Shown in pieces: positions 4,605 through 23,114 of a DNA stretch of 27,903 nt. A program made the translations under genes and the position numbers. The DNA lies in the NCBI RefSeq assembly GCF_029946515.1, contig NZ_JARZHH010000040.1:1-27903 (forward strand), given 5' to 3'. The stretch is from Polyangium sp. 6x1 (GTDB lineage: Bacteria > Myxococcota_A > Polyangia > Polyangiales > Polyangiaceae). How positions within the stretch are numbered: position 1 is the first letter of the stretch; the number at the start of each line of letters is the position of its first letter. The notes beneath the pieces were generated by a model. That model was not told the DNA's origin, did not search any database, and worked only from the letters and a program-made list of their open reading frames with translations.

Positions 4605-8732
<4,128 letters not shown>

Positions 8733-8738
8733 TGCCGA

Positions 8739-13070
<4,332 letters not shown>

Positions 13071-13122
13071 GGTGCAGGGGAGGGGGGCCGTCGTCGCTGA
13101 CGGCCTCCTGACCCCTCGACGC

Positions 13123-13165
13123 ACGCCCGCCCTGTCTTCAGGCGCGGGCGTGTGTTCTTTTGTTC
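13123..13165 (+). terminator. Rho-independent terminator downstream of rpoC
   Basis: ACGCCCGC-cctgtcttcaggc-GCGGGCGT hairpin (13123-13151) is followed by gtgTTCTTTTGTTc. Confidence 0.55.
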
Positions 13166-13267
13166 GGCCAGGCACGCGCCGTCTCCTGCCGATCCGCCGG
13201 ATGGCTGCTGCTTCGCGGGTCTTGGGATCCCCCGTCGTTGCGGACATGTACTATCTCTGCACTCGCG

Positions 13268-17138: not shown

Positions 17139-18080
17139 ATGTACGGTCCCAAAGGTCAGAGCAGCGGCGGTGGACGACCGCCTGCGGCCCCGAAGAAAGT
17201 CACCGTCCCGGACATCCGCGCGCGCAAGGCGGGTGGGCCGCCGATCGCGATGGTGACGGCCTACGACTTCACGATGGCGCGCCTCCTCGACGAGGGCGGC
17301 GCGGACATGCTGCTCGTCGGCGATTCGCTCGGCATGGTCGTGCAGGGGCATCCGACGACGCTGCCGGTGACGGTCGAGGAGATCTGTTACCACGGCCGTG
17401 CGGTCGCGCGCGGGGCGCGGCGCGCGCATGTGGTCGGGGACATGCCGTTCATGAGCTTCCAGGTCTCGGCCATGCAGGCGCTGGAGAACGCGGGCCGCAT
17501 GATGAAGGACGGCGCGTTCGAGAGCGTGAAGCTCGAAGGCGGCGAGGAGATCGCCGAGCACGTGCGCCGCATCGTCGCGGCGGGCATCCCTGTGTGTGGG
17601 CACATCGGGCTCACGCCGCAATCGGTGCACGCGATGGGCGGCTTCAAGGTGCAGGGCAAGGGCGAGGAGAACGCGGCGCGGCTCGTGCGGGACGCGCAGG
17701 CGCTCGACGAGGCCGGCGCCTACGCGATCGTGCTCGAAGCGATCCCGCCGGATCTCGCGGAGGAGATCACGGCGGCCGTATCTGTCCCGACGATCGGGAT
17801 TGGCGCGGGCGCGGGGTGTGATGGGCAGGTGCTCGTCTGTTACGACATGCTCGGCATGTACCCGGATCTGCGCCCGCGCTTCGCGAAGCGTTTCTCCGAG
17901 GTGGGCGAGCAGATCATGGCGGCGACGCGGGCGTACGTGGACGAGGTGCAAGCGCGCACGTTCCCCGGCGCCGAGCACAGCTTCAAGCCGAACGGCCCGC
18001 GCCGCATCACGCCGCCGGCCGAGCCTGCTGCTGCGGTGCTGGAGCTGGAGGAGATTCCTCCGCACTGGCAGACGCATTGA
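17139..18080 (+). CDS. panB: 3-methyl-2-oxobutanoate hydroxymethyltransferase (ketopantoate hydroxymethyltransferase)
   Basis: 313 aa, IAMVTAYDFTMARLLDEGGADMLLVGDSLGMVVQGH…VKLEGG…GIPVCGHIGLTPQSVHAMGGFKVQGKG. PanB family with a C-terminal extension. RBS GGAGGA 5 nt upstream of the ATG. Confidence 0.9.
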   Translation: MYGPKGQSSGGGRPPAAPKKVTVPDIRARKAGGPPIAMVTAYDFTMARLLDEGGADMLLVGDSLGMVVQGHPTTLPVTVEEICYHGRAVARGARRAHVVGDMPFMSFQVSAMQALENAGRMMKDGAFESVKLEGGEEIAEHVRRIVAAGIPVCGHIGLTPQSVHAMGGFKVQGKGEENAARLVRDAQALDEAGAYAIVLEAIPPDLAEEITAAVSVPTIGIGAGAGCDGQVLVCYDMLGMYPDLRPRFAKRFSEVGEQIMAATRAYVDEVQARTFPGAEHSFKPNGPRRITPPAEPAAAVLELEEIPPHWQTH

Positions 18081-18093
18081 GCTTCGAGGGCGA

Positions 18094-18115
18094 GGGCGGG
18101 CCCGCGAGCCCGCCC
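18094..18115. terminator. GC-rich hairpin between convergent panB (+) and the Cys-rich lipoprotein gene (-); likely bidirectional terminator
   Basis: GGGCGGGC-ccgcga-GCCCGCCC, a perfect 8-bp stem, in the 48-nt convergent spacer. An adjacent hairpin GCATCAA-ttgcag-TTGATGC (18125-18144) spans the minus-strand stop codon. Confidence 0.45.
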
Positions 18116-18128
18116 CGCGCCTTCGGCA

Positions 18129-19142
18129 TCAATTGCAGTTGATGCCGCAGATGAGCTCCACCTCGCCCACGCAGATGCCGTCCCAGCTCTGCTCGCAGCA
18201 ATAAGGATCGGCCTTGCAAACGGCCGCGGCGCACGGGTTGCACGTCGGATCCAGCGCGCCGCCGTTTCCCTGGCAGATCGAGTGCGCGCAGTTGCAGCTC
18301 ACGCCGCACTTCATCGTGGCCGCGTCCACGCAGGCCTGGTTCCAGCCCGTCGTGCAGCACTCGGGCTGATCCATGCACACCGACGTGATGCACGGATCCG
18401 CGCCGCAGATCATGTCCGCGAGGTAGGAGCAGGCTCCGTTCCACGGCGCGCTCGAGTTCATGCCGCAGCAGTTCGCGTCCTGCATGCACACCTCGTCCAC
18501 GCAAGACGCGCGGCAGACGTCCGGATCGAGCGCCTCGCCCGTGCCGCAGACCGAGTGCGGGCACTCCGCGCAGGGCCCGCAATCCTCGGCGCACGAGCCA
18601 CAATCCTCGCCGCCGTTGCACGCGCCGTCGCCGCAGAAGCAGGCGCCGCAGTCGTTCGGGCACGTGTCGCACGTCTCGCCGTTGCACTCGCCGTTGCCGC
18701 AGCAGCCGGCGTTGCAGAGCTGATCGGCGAGCGCGACGCAGTTGCCGCCCCAGAATCCGTCGCAACACCCAGCGCCGTTCTGCGACCCGCAGACCTGCGC
18801 GACGCAGGAATTGCAGCCGTCCGTGAGCGGGTCCCCGACGGTGCAGACCGCGTGCTGGCAGACGTCGCCGCCGCCCGATGAGGACGAGGAGGACGACGAC
18901 GACGACGACGAAGACGAGGACGAGGACGAGGACGCGCTTGAGCTCGATGCGCTCGACGAGGACGACGAGGACGACGAGGCGGACGACGACGACGCGCTCA
19001 TGCCGCCCATGCCGCCGCTTCCGCCTGCGCCGCCGTCACCGCCCGCGCCGGCGTTGTTTCGCGTGCCGAAGAGGTCCCTGCCGTCGGCGGTACACCCGGC
19101 CGCGGCAAGCGCGGCGATCGCAAGCAAGCACGTGAATCGCAT
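18129..19142 (-). CDS. Secreted cysteine-rich lipoprotein with a ~40-residue poly-Ser tract and four repeats of a ~50-aa 8-Cys module
   Basis: Start ATG 19142 ([17 protein letters not shown]; lipobox AAGC) with RBS AGGAG 7 nt upstream; the track start at 19160 is an in-frame TTG. Has a poly-Ser tract; four modules of the type C..S.C..G.ALDP.C..C...VC..D..CC...W...C......C; and a central [37 protein letters not shown] segment resembling the Myxococcus cysteine-rich repeat. Confidence 0.75.
   Translation of the reverse strand: [337 protein letters not shown]
18877..18992. repeat. Imperfect trinucleotide tract (GAC/GAG/GAA)n on the + strand, i.e. (TCN)n poly-Ser codons on the - strand
   Basis: ~115 nt of gaggacgaggaggacgacgacgacgacgacgaagacgaggacgag..., encoding [40 protein letters not shown] in the minus-strand lipoprotein. 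Confidence 0.8.
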
Positions 19143-19180
19143 GTCCCCACTCCTGGGCAAGGACGCGATGCTAACGCGGT

Positions 19181-21214
19181 TCAGGCCGGCGTGGACGCCG
19201 AACCCTCGCGCTTTTGCCCCACCGCGCGCAGGAACAGCTCCAGCACGGCGAGGCCGAGCAGCCCGAGCGCGACGTACGGCGACGCGTCAATCGAGGGAAC
19301 GACCCCGCCGAGCTCCTCGGCGCGCGCCGCGTCGATCACGCGCCGCGGACGCAGATCGATCTCGCGCTCGGGCACGGTCGCGACGCGGATCGCGCGCTCG
19401 CCGTCGAGGCGCACCTCGTACCTGCCCTGGACTGGCGCCACGGCGCGGCGACGGCCGTCCTGCTCCACGACCGGGATCGGCCGGCGCGCCTCGCCCGCGC
19501 GCACGGGCAGCCGCTCGATCGCGACGTCCTTGAACCCGTCGAACGTGAACGCGTCGCCGACGTCGATCTGCCGCGCCCCGCCTCGCGCCCGCGCCGTCCC
19601 GACGAACCGGTCGAGCAGCGCCAGGAAGGCGGGCCGGAGGACGAAGTCGCTCTCGTCCACGGTGAGCGGCAAGGACAGCGCGAAGACGGCGCCCCGGCCG
19701 AGTGAGCGGCGCAGGAGCAGGGGCGCGCCGTCGTCCCACCGCGCGAGCACGTCCGCGTTCGTCGCGGCGGCCGGGTCGAAGGACGCGCGCCCGTCGGGCG
19801 AGAGTTTTCCCAGGCCCTCCGCGCTCGGCCCGAAGAACACCGCGCTCGTGAGATCGGCGCCCGGGGACGGGCTCGGCCCCCAGCGCACCACGCCTGGCAC
19901 GAGCGGGTCGAATCCTGCGCCGAGCGGGGCCGTCGCCGCGCGCGGGCCGAACGTCAAGAGCAGCACGCCCCCTCGCTCGACCCACGCCGACAGCGAACGC
20001 CGTCCCTCCGGCGTGAAGCCCGGCACGTCGTCGACGATGAGCCCCGCGAATGCAGCGAGCTCGTCCGTGTGGTCCGGCACCGCGGGCAGCGGCCGCACCT
20101 CCGCGTCGAGGTGCATCGCCGCGAGGGCCTGCTCGATCGGCGGCGGCCCGCCCGTGGCCACGTGCGTCGAGGCCACGTCCACCACGACCGCGATCGGCAG
20201 CGCCCCGCCGGCCGGCACCACCGGCGCCTCGTCGTCCTCGAGGATCGCGTCGCCCGGCGTCAGCCCGACGATCAGCTCCTCCGGCGCGCCTTCCGGCACG
20301 TCGAGCGCGATCTCCTCGGCGCGGATCGCGGGCCCGAGCGGCGCCGACGCGAGCACCTTGCCCCCGGCGCGCAGCTCCACCGCCCGCCCGACCGAGGCCG
20401 AGATCACGGCCGCGCCCTCGCCTGCCGGCCGCGCCTCGGGGCTGCACACGACACGCGCTCGCACCTTGCCCGAGCGCAGATCCGCGCGCGTCACCGCGCA
20501 ATCGCGGCCCGAGGCTTCGAGCTCCGGCAGCGGCACCCACAGCGTCGTGTCCGAGCCGCCGCCGAGGGGCGTCGCGTTCGGCGTCCCGTCCGCGAGGTCG
20601 CTGAGCAGCACCACGCGCCGATCGGTGTGCGGCACGCTGCGCAAGAGCTCCCGCGCAAGCGTCAGCGCCCCTTCCAGATCGGTCGCGCGATCGGACGGCT
20701 CGATCGCGTCGAGCGCGCCCGTCACGGCTGCCATGTTCGTCGTCGACGCGAGCGCCACGCGCGCCGGCGCGCCCCCGAGGACCACGGCCACCGCGTCGCC
20801 GCTGCGCAGGCCCGTGGCGAGCTCCCGCGCCGACGCGAGGGCCCGCTCGAACTTCGTCCGCTTGCCCGGCCCGCCCGTCCCGCCTTCCAGCGGCGCGCGC
20901 ATGCTCAGCGAGTCGTCGATCACGATCGCGAGCGCCACCGAGGCCCCGTCCTTCCGCGACAGCCCGAGCCGCGCGCACCGCACGAAGGGCGTCGCGCCGA
21001 GCACCGCGAGCATCAGCACGCTGAGCGCTCGCACCGCGAAGAGCGAGCGATCCTCCAGCATGCTCCGCCGCCGGGCCATGGGCTTCGTCGGCGGCACGAG
21101 CTTCGCGGGGGGGAAGGGTTGCTCCTCGGCTTGCCTTCGCCGCAGCAGGTGCGCCGCGACCGGGGCGCCGACGAGCAGCGCCACGAGCAGCGCGGCGAGC
21201 GTGGCGAAGCTCAT
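19181..21214 (-). CDS. BatA-like membrane protein: N-terminal TM/'HLLRRR' aerotolerance-regulator N-domain, vWA (MIDAS) domain, long C-terminal region, C-terminal TM helix
   Basis: 677 aa from ATG 21214: MSFATLAALLVALLVGAPVAAHLLRRRQAEEQPF (BatA_N pattern). vWA: SVALAIVIDDSLSM…VVLLSDLADGT. C-terminal hydrophobic YVALGLLGLAVLELFL. Its ATG overlaps the DUF58 stop (ATGA). The upstream 330 codons of the 1007-aa track ORF are Arg/Gly junk read out of frame across the DUF58 gene. Confidence 0.75.
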   Translation of the reverse strand: MSFATLAALLVALLVGAPVAAHLLRRRQAEEQPFPPAKLVPPTKPMARRRSMLEDRSLFAVRALSVLMLAVLGATPFVRCARLGLSRKDGASVALAIVIDDSLSMRAPLEGGTGGPGKRTKFERALASARELATGLRSGDAVAVVLGGAPARVALASTTNMAAVTGALDAIEPSDRATDLEGALTLARELLRSVPHTDRRVVLLSDLADGTPNATPLGGGSDTTLWVPLPELEASGRDCAVTRADLRSGKVRARVVCSPEARPAGEGAAVISASVGRAVELRAGGKVLASAPLGPAIRAEEIALDVPEGAPEELIVGLTPGDAILEDDEAPVVPAGGALPIAVVVDVASTHVATGGPPPIEQALAAMHLDAEVRPLPAVPDHTDELAAFAGLIVDDVPGFTPEGRRSLSAWVERGGVLLLTFGPRAATAPLGAGFDPLVPGVVRWGPSPSPGADLTSAVFFGPSAEGLGKLSPDGRASFDPAAATNADVLARWDDGAPLLLRRSLGRGAVFALSLPLTVDESDFVLRPAFLALLDRFVGTARARGGARQIDVGDAFTFDGFKDVAIERLPVRAGEARRPIPVVEQDGRRRAVAPVQGRYEVRLDGERAIRVATVPEREIDLRPRRVIDAARAEELGGVVPSIDASPYVALGLLGLAVLELFLRAVGQKREGSASTPA

Positions 21215-22146
21215 GCCCGCGCCTCGGCCACGGCGCGCACCACCTCGCGCACCACGTCGGCGGGGGGTCGGTCCGTGACCGCCTCGACCCAGCGACCGCC
21301 CCGCGCGGACAGCTCCTTCGACCAGCGCTCGGCGATCCCGGCGAGCCGCTCGCGGTAGACGGCGCGCACCTCCTCGGCGTCCGTCTCGACGACCACGTCG
21401 CCCTCGCTCGCGCGGAGCCGCACGTGCCCGGAGAAACCGAGATCCGCCTCGTTTGGATCGAGCACCCGGAGCGCCACGAGCGATCGCCCGCCGGCCCCGA
21501 GCGCCGTGAACGCCGAGAGCGCCCTCTCTGGCAGGTCCACGAAATCGCTCACCAGCACGATCACCGCGCCTCGCCGCGCGCGCCGCGCCACGGGGGCGAG
21601 GGCGCGCTCCATGGCCCCGTCGTCCGTGCTCGCGTCGCCTGCGGCCGCGGCCCCTTCGAGCGCCCCTGCGACCCTGTCGAACGCCTCGCGCCCGCTCGAC
21701 GCCGGCAGCGGCAGCGTCCCCCGCCCGCCGAGCCACGCGAGCCCCACGGGATCGCCCGTCGAGAGCGCCACGCGCGCGAGCGCCGCGGCCACGAGCGCCC
21801 CGTACGCGAGCTTTGCGCCTGGGGCCCGCTGGCTCCGGTAGGCCATCGACGCCGTCGCGTCCACGCAGAGCCACAGCGCGCGATCCGTCTCCGTCTCGAA
21901 CTCGCGCACCATCATCCGGTCGTGCCGCAGCAGCGCGCGCCGGTCGAAGAACCTGAGATCGTCGCCGGGCACGTAGGGCCTGTGCCCTCCGAACTCCACG
22001 CCGGGGCCTTTGCGTACGCTCCGATGCCCGCCTGCGTATACGCCTTCGGCCAGCGTCCGGGCTCGCAGGCGCAGCGGCGCGAGGCTCCCCCAGTCGATGG
22101 GGATCCCGTCCTTTCCGGAGCGCGACGAGGGGCGAAGCTCGGCCAT
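21211..22146 (-). CDS. DUF58-family protein (MoxR/Bat-operon-associated, vWA-like)
   Basis: 311 aa, GVEFGGHRPYVPGDDLRFFDRRALLRHDRMMVREFETETDRALWLCVDATASM matches the DUF58 core motif. Translationally coupled to the downstream BatA-like gene. Confidence 0.75.
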   Translation of the reverse strand: MAELRPSSRSGKDGIPIDWGSLAPLRLRARTLAEGVYAGGHRSVRKGPGVEFGGHRPYVPGDDLRFFDRRALLRHDRMMVREFETETDRALWLCVDATASMAYRSQRAPGAKLAYGALVAAALARVALSTGDPVGLAWLGGRGTLPLPASSGREAFDRVAGALEGAAAAGDASTDDGAMERALAPVARRARRGAVIVLVSDFVDLPERALSAFTALGAGGRSLVALRVLDPNEADLGFSGHVRLRASEGDVVVETDAEEVRAVYRERLAGIAERWSKELSARGGRWVEAVTDRPPADVVREVVRAVAEARA

Positions 22147-22214
22147 GGGGGGACCGATGAATTACCCCAACGCCAAAGGCCCGCCACGACAAAACTTGTG
22201 GCAAGGAGAGGACC

Positions 22215-23114
22215 GTGCGCGTGTTCTTCTGCGATCACGTGGAGGTCCCGCTTCCGCCCGGGCATCGCTTCCCGATGGCGAAGTACGCGCGCCTTCGCGA
22301 GCGCTTGCTGGAAGCTCGCCTGCTCGATCCGACCGACCTCCTGCCCTCGACGCCCGCCTCGATCGCCGACCTCGAGCGTGTCCACGCGCTGTCCTACCTC
22401 GAAGGCTTGCTCTCGGGCACGCTCGACCCCCGCGTCCTCCGCGCCATCGGTTTTCCCTGGTCCGACGCGCTCATGCGCCGGTCCCGGGCCAGCGTCTCCG
22501 GCACGATCTGCGCGGGCCGCGCCGCCCTGGAGGACGGCATTTCGGGAAACCTCGCCGGCGGGACGCACCACGCGTTTGCCGATCGGGGCGCTGGATTCTG
22601 CGTCTTCAACGACATCGCGGTCGCCTGCCGCACCTTGCTCGACGCGGGCGACGTCCGCCGGGTGCTCGTCCTCGACCTCGACGTCCACCAGGGCGACGGC
22701 ACCGCGGCCATTTTCGAGGGCGAGCCGCGCGTCTATACGGCCTCGATCCACGGCGAGAAGAATTTCCCTTTTCACAAGCAGCGAAGCGACCTCGACCTCG
22801 CGCTGCCGGACCGGACGGGCGACGACGAATACCTTGGCGCGCTCGAACCCTTTCTCGCGCGCGCGTTCGCCGAATCGAACCCCGATTTGGTGTTTTTCCA
22901 GGGCGGCGTGGACGCGCTTGGGGCGGATAAATTGGGCCGGCTTGGCATGACGGCCGCGGGCATGCGCCGGAGGGACGAGCGTGTCCTCGGGGAAGCGCGC
23001 CGCCGGGGCATTCCGATCGCGCTCACGCTCGGCGGCGGTTATGCCGATCCCATCGACGCGACCCTCGACGCGCACGTCGGGACGTATGCCGTCGCCCGCG
23101 AGGTCTTCGGATGA
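22215..23114 (+). CDS. Histone-deacetylase/acetoin-utilisation (AcuC/HDAC) superfamily Zn-dependent amidohydrolase
   Basis: 299 aa from GTG 22215 with RBS AAGGAG 5 nt upstream. Motifs GGTHHAFADRGAGFCVFNDIAVA, VLVLDLDVHQGDGT, YTASIHGEKNFPF and LGGGYADP correspond to the HDAC catalytic-His / Zn-ligand / catalytic-Tyr positions. Divergent from the DUF58 operon. Confidence 0.8.
   Translation: MRVFFCDHVEVPLPPGHRFPMAKYARLRERLLEARLLDPTDLLPSTPASIADLERVHALSYLEGLLSGTLDPRVLRAIGFPWSDALMRRSRASVSGTICAGRAALEDGISGNLAGGTHHAFADRGAGFCVFNDIAVACRTLLDAGDVRRVLVLDLDVHQGDGTAAIFEGEPRVYTASIHGEKNFPFHKQRSDLDLALPDRTGDDEYLGALEPFLARAFAESNPDLVFFQGGVDALGADKLGRLGMTAAGMRRRDERVLGEARRRGIPIALTLGGGYADPIDATLDAHVGTYAVAREVFG

What the first reader, a model, noticed from the sequence alone, without database searches (positions are those of the whole stretch)
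18129..22146. DUF58 – BatA-like vWA – Cys-rich lipoprotein operon with no MoxR ATPase
DUF58 and BatA-type vWA proteins normally follow a MoxR AAA+ gene (Bat/aerotolerance-type operons). Here DUF58 is the first gene, read divergently from an HDAC-like gene. It is translationally coupled (ATGA) to an unusually long (677 aa) BatA-like protein with TM helices at both ends. This is followed 38 nt later by a Cys-rich secreted lipoprotein, and the set is closed by a GC hairpin. This suggests the vWA/DUF58 pair may chaperone or anchor the disulfide-rich lipoprotein, with the ATPase supplied in trans or absent.
Basis: partly seen in the sequence, partly recalled or inferred. Interest (0 to 1): 0.55.

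Follow-up and report, generated by a model that had tools for sequence, protein, structure and literature searches.

The report
Conserved DUF58–vWA pair lacking MoxR
The three genes are really there, but the conserved unit is a two-gene pair (a cytoplasmic DUF58 protein plus a large membrane protein with a vWA domain) found across one class of myxobacteria without the usual MoxR ATPase gene nearby; the cysteine-rich lipoprotein gene is a recent, genus-specific neighbour.

Summary
On the minus strand lie DUF58 (22146..21211), an ATGA overlap, a 677-aa BatA_N+vWA protein (21214..19181), a 38-nt gap with an AGGAG site, a Cys-rich lipoprotein (19142..18129) and a strong GC hairpin. The window comes from a Polyangium species.

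In 80 species-representative Polyangia genomes, DUF58 sits directly upstream of the BatA-like gene in 70, and 62 keep the 4-nt stop/start overlap. A validated MoxR probe finds no MoxR within about ±10 kb in any of 92 loci (1.69 Mb), including relatives at 35% identity. So the MoxR-less pair is real and old.

The lipoprotein (Pfam DUF8252) follows the pair only in Polyangium sensu stricto. Sorangium has no third gene, other genomes carry different genes in that slot, and DUF8252 also occurs in unrelated contexts.

The long protein is BatA_N (2 TM) – vWA (intact MIDAS) – β-sandwich – non-catalytic GATase1/DUF4350-like domain – β-sandwich – C-terminal TM, with the ectodomain probably periplasmic.

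Verdict: a new variant of the MoxR/DUF58/vWA (Bat/MRP) theme, of modest interest. Whether a MoxR acts in trans could not be tested.

The parts
21211..22146 (-). DUF58 gene (311 aa, no TM helix or signal peptide; vWA-like core with a DATAS MIDAS-like motif at residue 96)
   Evidence: Pfam DUF58 E=9.7e-38, weak VWA_2/VWA_CoxE. No hydrophobic segment, DATAS motif. Motifs HRS..G.GVEFGG, GDDLR, FET.T.R and DA..SM conserved in 79 orthologues.
21211..21214 (-). ATGA stop/start overlap between the DUF58 and BatA-like genes
   Evidence: Sequence. The same 4-nt overlap ([ATG]TGA) occurs in 62 of 80 Polyangia genome loci, and a 1-nt overlap in 2 more.
19181..21214 (-). BatA_N–vWA–GATase1-like membrane protein gene (677 aa)
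20972..21214 (-). BatA_N double-TM hairpin (residues 1-81) with a highly conserved, K/R-rich TM1–TM2 loop (residues 22-58)
   Evidence: Hydropathy and 9 K/R in the loop. P18, A21, H22 invariant and F34, D55, L58 nearly invariant across 42 diverse family members.
20525..20938 (-). vWA domain (residues ~93-230) with a complete MIDAS (D100-x-S102-x-S104 ... T178 ... D206)
19655..20230 (-). GATase1-like / DUF4350-like flavodoxin-fold domain (residues ~329-520), without a conserved catalytic Cys/His
19214..19285 (-). C-terminal TM anchor (residues 644-667)
   Evidence: Hydropathy; helix 646-673 in the model; S645, L653, E659 and R663 nearly invariant.
19143..19180 (-). 38-nt intergenic spacer with an AGGAG ribosome-binding site (19150-19154)
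   Evidence: Sequence. No significant RNA structure: z=0.01.
18129..19142 (-). DUF8252 Cys-rich lipoprotein gene (337 aa): signal peptide + Cys17 lipobox, Gly/Ser linker, and about 3.5 'C.H..C..G..L...C..C...VC..D..CC...WD..C' modules plus CGDG.C-type repeats
   Evidence: Translation. 48 homologues, of which 42 carry precomputed Pfam PF26780, named DUF8252 in the gene tables. Cys17 and most other Cys invariant. AF2 model: helical modules with pLDDT >90.
18076..18133 (-). GC-rich hairpin between the convergent lipoprotein and panB genes (core stem 18093-18116); no U-tract
   Evidence: RNA fold -37.6 kcal/mol, z=-3.92. Not called by the terminator scan because there is no T-run.
22215..23114 (+). 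Boundary only, not part of the module: divergent HDAC-like gene
   Evidence: Hist_deacetyl E=7.5e-55. Among the Polyangium loci compared, present upstream only in L001/L012 (the same y55x31 contig) and L010; absent from L002, L011 and L013.
17139..18080 (+). Boundary only: convergent panB (ketopantoate hydroxymethyltransferase)
   Evidence: Pantoate_transf E=9.8e-114. A syntenic neighbour of the pair in 30 of 80 loci.

Best explanation
The conserved functional unit is a two-gene, translationally coupled module.

Shown:
- The module is DUF58 plus a 650-700-aa inner-membrane protein built as BatA_N (two TM helices) – vWA with an intact MIDAS – β-sandwich – non-catalytic GATase1/DUF4350-like domain – β-sandwich – C-terminal TM.
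- It is inherited vertically in Polyangia (Myxococcota) among housekeeping genes (rpoBC, panB, uvrB, ftsH, recA).
- It has no MoxR gene in cis.

Inferred mechanism:
- The membrane protein has its N-terminus outside. The conserved K/R-rich TM1–TM2 loop and the short C-terminal tail face the cytoplasm. The roughly 560-residue vWA/GATase1-like ectodomain faces the periplasm, as shown experimentally for Borrelia BB0173.
- The soluble DUF58 protein, itself a degenerate vWA fold with a DxTxS site, docks on that conserved cytoplasmic loop.
- The periplasmic MIDAS captures an acidic residue of an envelope protein ligand.
- The pair would therefore act as a trans-membrane scaffold or anchor of the Bat/MRP type, linked to envelope integrity and stress. 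It would work either without ATP-driven remodelling or with a MoxR encoded elsewhere.

The DUF8252 lipoprotein gene is a lineage-specific occupant of a variable slot between this module and panB. In Polyangium it is probably read through from the same promoter. It is not an obligatory partner.
For: Pair conservation:
- DUF58 lies directly upstream on the same strand in 70 of 80 species-representative genomes; 62 have the 4-nt overlap.
- The same pair occurs in relatives at 35-36% identity.

Absence of MoxR:
- The probe scores 230 bits on Pfam AAA_3.
- As a positive control it finds 432 plasmid records, at 53-67% identity in the full-length rows listed, 8 of the 12 listed rows annotated 'MoxR family ATPase'.
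- Its best hit in 92 loci (1.69 Mb) is E=0.004. The two such weak hits that were scanned are a sigma-54 regulator (representing the recurrent weak hit in the Labilithrix-type loci) and Lon.
- Precomputed Pfam lists for 9 neighbourhoods show no AAA_3.

Topology:
- 9 K/R in the TM1–TM2 loop.
- The BB0173 vWA domain is periplasmic (PMC5700661).
- Archaeal DUF4350 ectodomain proteins carry a C-terminal TM and co-occur with secreted vWA proteins (PMC5898192).
- C239 and C257 are invariant and lie on adjacent strands, which fits a periplasmic disulfide (inference).

Lipoprotein as passenger.
Against: - No experiment or expression data were available. The DUF58–loop docking and the nature of the MIDAS ligand are pure inference.
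- Four K/R residues also follow TM2, so the topology rests mainly on analogy.
- The AF2 model has only moderate confidence (pLDDT 69.8, pTM 0.51).
- In the Polyangium genomes seen (window, L001/L012, L002, L010, L011, L013) the lipoprotein gene is always present, co-oriented and closely spaced, so a genus-specific functional link cannot be excluded.
- MoxR in trans was not tested, so 'ATPase-independent' is not established.
- Some loci have less than 10 kb of flank.
Confidence: 0.6

Rival explanations
1. One reading: the three genes form one functional operon. The periplasmic vWA domain (with DUF58) chaperones or anchors the disulfide-rich DUF8252 lipoprotein, which is its MIDAS ligand.
For: - Same strand, 38-nt gap, good ribosome-binding site, no hairpin between the genes, and one strong hairpin after the third gene.
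- The arrangement is conserved in the five other Polyangium genomes seen: y55x31 (L001/L012), P. aurulentum (L002), P. fumosum (L010), sp. 15x6 (L011) and P. jinanense (L013).
- Both the vWA ectodomain and the lipoprotein are predicted to be extracytoplasmic.
Against: - DUF8252 is absent within ±10 kb of the pair in 76 of 80 species representatives.
- It is separated from the pair by two genes, one on the opposite strand, in L007.
- It sits next to panB without the pair in L005.
- It occurs in unrelated contexts in L003/L004 and L006.
- A different gene fills the slot in L017.
- The pair is far older and more widespread than the association.
Confidence: 0.12
2. A canonical MRP-type system with a dispersed ATPase. 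The pair still depends on a MoxR AAA+ chaperone encoded elsewhere in these 12-16 Mb genomes, which engages DUF58 in the cytoplasm.
For: - In characterised systems MoxR heads the operon and is followed by DUF58 and vWA genes (PMC11834572 and PMC12067865; example locus).
- The DUF58 motifs are well conserved here.
- MoxR-vWA systems are reported in deltaproteobacteria (PMC7159879). From memory, untested: large myxobacterial genomes encode several COG0714 ATPases.
Against: - No MoxR within about ±10 kb in any of 92 loci spanning 35-95% identity. If MoxR were an obligatory partner, linkage would be expected to persist in at least some lineages.
- No direct test of the rest of any genome was possible.
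Confidence: 0.3
3. A decaying remnant of a Bat operon: after loss of MoxR the pair is non-functional or drifting.
For: MoxR, BatB, the TPR protein (BatC) and the other Bat genes are missing.
Against: - Full-length conservation from 95% down to 28-35% identity.
- Invariant MIDAS and loop residues.
- Conserved DUF58 motifs and conserved 4-nt overlap.
- Gene-like codon-position GC for DUF58 and intact reading frames.
Confidence: 0.02
4. A MoxR-vWA-type biological-conflict (anti-phage) system that has lost or displaced its ATPase.
For: MoxR-vWA ternary conflict systems are enriched in multicellular bacteria, including deltaproteobacteria (PMC7159879).
Against: - No PADLOC hit for any of the three proteins.
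- No effector, VMAP, iSTAND or protease partner in the neighbourhoods.
- Stable, syntenic, housekeeping context (rpoBC, panB, uvrB, recA) with no sign of mobility.
Confidence: 0.02

Closest known systems
MRP-type MoxR operons / Bacteroides aerotolerance (Bat) operon (MoxR – DUF58 – BatA/BatB vWA membrane proteins – TPR BatC ...), including Borrelia BB0170-0176, Leptospira bat, Riemerella bat and the mycobacterial moxR1–DUF58–vWA genes
   Same: - A DUF58 gene immediately precedes a membrane protein with a BatA_N double-TM hairpin and a MIDAS-bearing vWA domain.
- The vWA domain is probably periplasmic, as in BB0173.
   Different: - No MoxR at the head of the operon or anywhere within about ±10 kb.
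- No second vWA protein (BatB), TPR protein (BatC), BatD or BatE.
- The vWA protein is twice as long. It carries an extra β-sandwich, a GATase1-like domain, a second β-sandwich and a C-terminal TM.
TIGR02226 'two_anch' N-terminal double-transmembrane proteins
   Same: N-terminal ~80-residue double-TM domain (E=7.6e-11, full-length match). [quoted passage not shown]
   Different: TIGR02226 defines only the N-terminal domain. It says nothing about the vWA/GATase1-like ectodomain or the DUF58 partnership.
Archaeal arCOG01314 (DUF4350) + secreted vWA + MoxR predicted secretion/surface complex (Makarova et al. 2015, PMC5898192)
   Same: - An extracytoplasmic flavodoxin/GldG-like (β-galactosidase middle-domain-like) domain anchored by a C-terminal TM, functionally linked to an extracytoplasmic vWA domain.
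- The same structural neighbours appear here: GH42 middle domains and GATase1-like proteins, plus a weak DUF4350 hit.
   Different: - Here the vWA and DUF4350-like domains are fused in one polypeptide behind a BatA_N hairpin.
- The partner is DUF58.
- There is no MoxR and no Ig-like or S-layer partner.
GATase1-like proteins of known structure (STM3548 2gk3; Planctomyces 3rht; ThuA-like 1t0b/4jqs; IFT52 N-terminal domain)
   Different: No conserved Cys/His/Glu triad, so it is not an amidotransferase. It is embedded in a membrane-anchored ectodomain.
Pfam DUF8252 (PF26780) Cys-rich proteins of Polyangia
   Same: - The window protein is 90% identical to a DUF8252-annotated Polyangium protein.
- It shares all conserved Cys, the lipobox Cys and the module order with more than 30 family members.
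   Different: Nothing distinguishes it from the family. The family itself is uncharacterised: no paper mentions it, and it has no PDB relative by sequence or fold.

Membership tests
DUF58 (PF01882) | Significant full-length match to the DUF58 profile | tested here: met
   E=9.7e-38, 130 bits vs cut-off 23.4, profile positions 2-209 of 216.
BatA_N / TIGR02226 two_anch | N-terminal ~80-residue domain with two TM helices and a short cytosolic loop | tested here: met
   PF07584 E=3.4e-10 (1-77/77); TIGR02226 E=7.6e-11 (1-79/82). Hydrophobic helices 1-25 and 56-81.
vWA domain with functional MIDAS | DxSxS ... T ... D metal-ion-dependent adhesion site | tested here: met
MRP-type MoxR / Bat operon | MoxR (AAA_3, COG0714) ATPase gene at the head of the operon, upstream of DUF58 | tested here: not met
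   No AAA_3 in the window or in 92 related loci. The probe was validated.
MRP-type MoxR / Bat operon | DUF58 gene adjacent to gene(s) for membrane-anchored vWA protein(s) | tested here: met
   ATGA overlap; conserved in 62 of 80 loci.
MRP-type MoxR / Bat operon | Additional Bat components (second vWA BatB, TPR BatC, BatD/BatE) | tested here: not met
   No second vWA or BatD/BatE gene in the same operon in the Pfam-annotated neighbourhoods. The only nearby TPR-family hit is a convergent TPR/aspartyl-protease gene after the pair in Minicystis.
MRP-type MoxR / Bat operon | Functional dependence on a MoxR ATPase (possibly encoded in trans) | not testable with these tools
No whole-genome search of a Polyangium genome was possible.
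Class I glutamine amidotransferase (GATase1) | Flavodoxin-like GATase1 fold | tested here: met
Class I glutamine amidotransferase (GATase1) | Catalytic Cys-His-Glu triad | tested here: not met
   No invariant or nearly invariant Cys or His between residues 322 and 520 in 42 homologues.
DUF8252 (PF26780) | Match to the PF26780 profile | tested here: inconclusive
   The local Pfam copy returned nothing for the window protein even at E<=10. It may lack the model. Membership is inferred: 42 of 48 homologues carry precomputed PF26780, including one 90% identical, and the full-length alignment keeps all Cys conserved.
Bacterial lipoprotein | Signal peptide followed by a lipobox with an invariant Cys | tested here: met
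   [17 protein letters not shown]; hydrophobic segment 1-21. Cys17 invariant in 13 homologues. No dedicated predictor was run. The -3 residue is Ala, not Leu.
MoxR-vWA conflict (defence) systems | MoxR + vWA + third component (VMAP/iSTAND/FtsH/β-propeller) with effector domains | tested here: not met
   No MoxR, no PADLOC hit, housekeeping synteny.

The most novel reading that the evidence does not exclude
DUF58 plus the BatA_N–vWA–GATase1-like protein form a self-sufficient, ATPase-independent trans-envelope module that is a core, vertically inherited component of the Polyangia cell envelope. That would show that the widespread DUF58/vWA membrane modules have a function separable from MoxR. 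In the genus Polyangium the module would additionally have recruited DUF8252, a disulfide-rich helical-repeat lipoprotein with no structural relative, as a co-expressed periplasmic or outer-membrane partner.
Probability: 0.12. Interest if true: 0.55.

Novelty: new variant of a known kind. Interest (0 to 1): 0.3.

Why it matters
The function of DUF58 and of the Bat-type vWA membrane proteins is still unknown. Work so far assumes they are MoxR cofactors or substrates. A whole bacterial class keeps a translationally coupled DUF58–vWA pair, with an intact MIDAS, for a long evolutionary time without MoxR in cis. That makes it a natural system for asking what DUF58 and vWA do on their own, or for identifying a dispersed MoxR partner by phylogenetic profiling.

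The fusion of vWA with a DUF4350/GATase1-like ectodomain also links the bacterial Bat-type proteins to the archaeal DUF4350–vWA–MoxR surface complex predicted by Makarova et al. The DUF8252 lipoprotein is a separate small curiosity: an uncharacterised disulfide-rich fold. None of this overturns current understanding, so the interest is modest.

Tried and rejected
1. Exact-sequence look-up of the window's BatA-like protein: not on record.
Repeated with 16 sequences.
3. The third homologue search, with the most distant representative P0293, returned only itself on a 2.4-kb contig. That was a wasted search.
4. The afdb50 fold library was unavailable.
5. My own GC3-based gene caller mis-called shadow and read-through ORFs in this 70% GC DNA. 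I dropped it in favour of tblastn with defined queries.
6. Recurrent P-loop ORFs near the pair were checked as possible substitute ATPases. They are UvrB, FtsH, Lon and sigma-54 regulators, not MoxR.
7. The 0.9-4.6 kb inserts between DUF58 and the BatA-like gene in 7 loci were checked for a hidden MoxR. They hold unrelated, mostly opposite-strand genes.
8. PDB sequence searches for all three proteins found nothing useful.
10. PADLOC found nothing.
11. Literature searches found no paper on DUF8252 or on MoxR-less DUF58 pairs in myxobacteria.
12. The 1007-aa ORF 19181..22204 is a frame read-through over DUF58, not a fused gene.
Full report
**Observation**

The window is about 70% GC. It is collinear at 92-95% nucleotide identity with Polyangium fumosum, P. 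jinanense and Polyangium sp. y55x31, so it comes from a Polyangium species (Myxococcota, Polyangia).

- **DUF58 gene**, 22146..21211, 311 aa (Pfam DUF58 E=9.7e-38).
- **ATGA stop/start overlap**.
- **677-aa gene**, 21214..19181, with BatA_N (E=3.4e-10), VWA_2 (E=7.8e-13) and TIGR02226 'two_anch' (E=7.6e-11).
- **38-nt spacer** with AGGAG 7 nt before the ATG at 19142.
- **337-aa protein gene**, with a signal peptide, a lipobox Cys17, a poly-Ser linker and 50 cysteines.
- **GC hairpin** directly after the stop: -37.6 kcal/mol, z=-3.9, no U-tract. It lies between this gene and the convergent panB.

The HDAC-like gene (22215..23114, +) is divergent. No MoxR/AAA_3 gene is in the window. The only AAA+ gene is a sigma-54 activator.

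**The long vWA protein**

It is not unusually long for its family.
- A word-indexed search gave 940 hits. The best 120 are all 58-94% identical, 664-745 aa, and carry BatA+VWA_2.
- An exhaustive search of 50%-identity representatives gave 189 proteins at E<1e-30. Most are 650-690 aa and match end to end, down to 28-35% identity.

- TM1 (residues 3-31) and TM2 (46-77);
- β-sandwich (239-318);
- a helix, then a second β-sandwich (549-626);
- C-terminal TM (646-673).

The MIDAS residues (D100, S102, S104, D206; T178 nearly) are invariant in 42 diverse members. No Cys or His is conserved in the GATase1-like region, so that domain is non-catalytic. The weak Pfam DUF4350 hit fits. Makarova et al. 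(PMC5898192) describe archaeal DUF4350 proteins as extracytoplasmic GldG/β-galactosidase-middle-domain-like modules with a C-terminal TM anchor. These co-occur with secreted vWA proteins and MoxR. Here the same two ectodomains are fused.

Topology is inferred, not shown:
- The TM1–TM2 loop carries 9 K/R and is among the best-conserved parts of the protein.
- The homologous Borrelia BB0173 exposes its vWA domain to the periplasm (PMC5700661).
- Invariant C239 and C257 sit on adjacent strands, consistent with a periplasmic disulfide.

**Is the DUF58–vWA pair without MoxR real and general?**

A scan of one genome per GTDB species found 306 relatives. The best 80 (L010-L089) are all Polyangia or unclassified myxobacterial MAGs: Polyangium, Sorangium, Minicystis, Byssovorax, Chondromyces and Labilithrix.

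| Position of DUF58 relative to the BatA-like gene | Loci (of 80) |
|---|---|
| Directly upstream, same strand, 4-nt overlap | 62 |
| Directly upstream, same strand, 1-nt overlap | 2 |
| Directly upstream, same strand, gap of 50 nt or less | 6 |
| Upstream, same strand, separated by an insert of 0.9-4.6 kb | 7 |
| Opposite strand | 1 |
| Not found | 2 |

These counts come from tblastn. The inserts in the 7 separated loci hold unrelated, mostly opposite-strand genes.

To test for MoxR I wrote a consensus of the AAA_3 core.
- It scores 230 bits (E=7e-69) on Pfam AAA_3.
- As a positive control it recovers 432 plasmid records, at 53-67% identity in the full-length rows listed, 8 of the 12 listed rows annotated 'MoxR family ATPase'.
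- In 92 loci (1.69 Mb) its best hit is E=0.004 at 25% identity. Those weak hits are sigma-54 response regulators and Lon.
- Other recurrent P-loop ORFs are FtsH and UvrB.
- Precomputed Pfam annotation of nine neighbourhoods, including three relatives at only 35-36% identity (LysM – DUF58 – BatA-like – SurA-like PPIase), also shows no AAA_3 within ±10 kb.

For contrast, the literature and one example locus show MoxR at the head, followed by DUF58 (PMC11834572 and PMC12067865; Rhizobium pPR2). The MoxR-less, translationally coupled pair is therefore an old, stable feature of this clade. It is embedded among housekeeping genes (rpoBC, panB, uvrB, ftsH, recA).

**Is the lipoprotein part of the unit?**

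Its linkage to the pair is narrow:
- DUF8252 follows the BatA-like gene only in Polyangium sensu stricto: 4 of 80 species representatives, plus P. aurulentum.
- In a Polyangiaceae MAG, a PGA_cap gene and an opposite-strand gene lie between them.
- In another MAG, DUF8252 sits next to panB with no pair upstream.
- More distant DUF8252 genes lie next to a glutaredoxin gene or collagen-like/Metallophos genes.
- In 19 loci (Sorangium, Chondromyces and others) panB ends 43-214 nt after the BatA-like gene, so there is no third gene.
- In one Polyangium-like MAG the slot holds an unrelated 358-aa secreted protein.

The BatA–panB junction is thus a variable slot, and DUF8252 is its occupant in one genus. 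Within Polyangium, the short gap, the ribosome-binding site and the lack of intervening structure make read-through co-transcription likely. That is circumstantial, and comparative data do not support an obligatory functional trio.

**Mechanism**

My committed reading is mostly inference. DUF58 is soluble and has a vWA-like core with a DxTxS site. It would bind the conserved cytoplasmic TM1–TM2 loop of the membrane protein. The periplasmic MIDAS/GATase1-like ectodomain would bind an envelope protein. The pair would act as a trans-membrane scaffold of the Bat/MRP kind.

MoxR-vWA systems normally use ATP to release or remodel the MIDAS-bound client (PMC7159879). Here that step is either dispensed with or provided by a MoxR encoded elsewhere.

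Two other readings are rejected:
- **Decay remnant**: ruled out by the strong conservation.
- **Defence-system remnant**: no PADLOC hits, and the context is stable and housekeeping.

**Verdict**

The lipoprotein link is genus-specific and probably incidental.
- This is a new variant of a known kind: the MoxR/DUF58/vWA theme without cis MoxR, with a fused DUF4350-like ectodomain. It is of modest interest.

Noticed in passing
L003:10001-11388; L004:8790-10177: A 55%-identical DUF8252 homologue is followed, with a 4-nt overlap, by a 140-aa glutaredoxin-domain gene. This may be a dedicated redox partner for the disulfide-rich protein.
   Followed up: no
L017:5789-6865; L007:5397-7827; junction window:18081-19180: The slot between the BatA-like gene and convergent panB is variable. 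It holds DUF8252 in Polyangium, an unrelated 358-aa secreted protein in L017, and PGA_cap plus an opposite-strand gene before DUF8252 in L007. In 19 loci (Sorangium, Chondromyces and others) it is empty.
   Followed up: partly
L088:9212-10048 (-); L080:9233-10048 (-): A different Cys-rich lipoprotein family (repeats CSRDVEC..LCNWKL) lies on the opposite strand just upstream of the BatA-like gene, displacing DUF58 by 1-4.6 kb.
   Followed up: no
L090, L091, L092 (about 7700-13200 in each): In relatives at 35-36% identity the pair lies in a conserved block: Ser/Thr kinase – LysM protein – DUF58 – BatA-like – SurA-like PPIase. A DsbA-like gene is nearby. LysM and kinase genes also lie upstream in Sorangium. 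This suggests an envelope-biogenesis neighbourhood.
   Followed up: partly
window:13160-15448 (+): A multidomain regulator (MshEN – HD_5/HD – receiver – DUF4388/PatA_N) is conserved between rpoC and panB/DUF2330 in Polyangium and Sorangium, and is present ~8.6 kb downstream of the pair, beyond panB, in Minicystis.
   Followed up: no
window:26636-27901 (+): An ORF running off the window end has a metzincin (astacin/matrixin-like) motif and FG-GAP repeats. Its 3' part matches several places in the P. jinanense locus L013 at 67-76% identity, i.e. repeated modules.
   Followed up: partly
window:4350-13247 (-); window:19181-22204 (-): Very long spurious ORFs: a 2965-aa antisense ORF over rpoB/rpoC and a 1007-aa read-through ORF over DUF58. 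These are typical high-GC shadow ORFs, not genes.
   Followed up: yes
window:22215-23488 (+): The HDAC-like gene and the 126-aa ORF after it are present in only some close Polyangium relatives: L010 and L001/L012, but not L002, L011 or L013. The region upstream of DUF58 is therefore also variable.
   Followed up: partly
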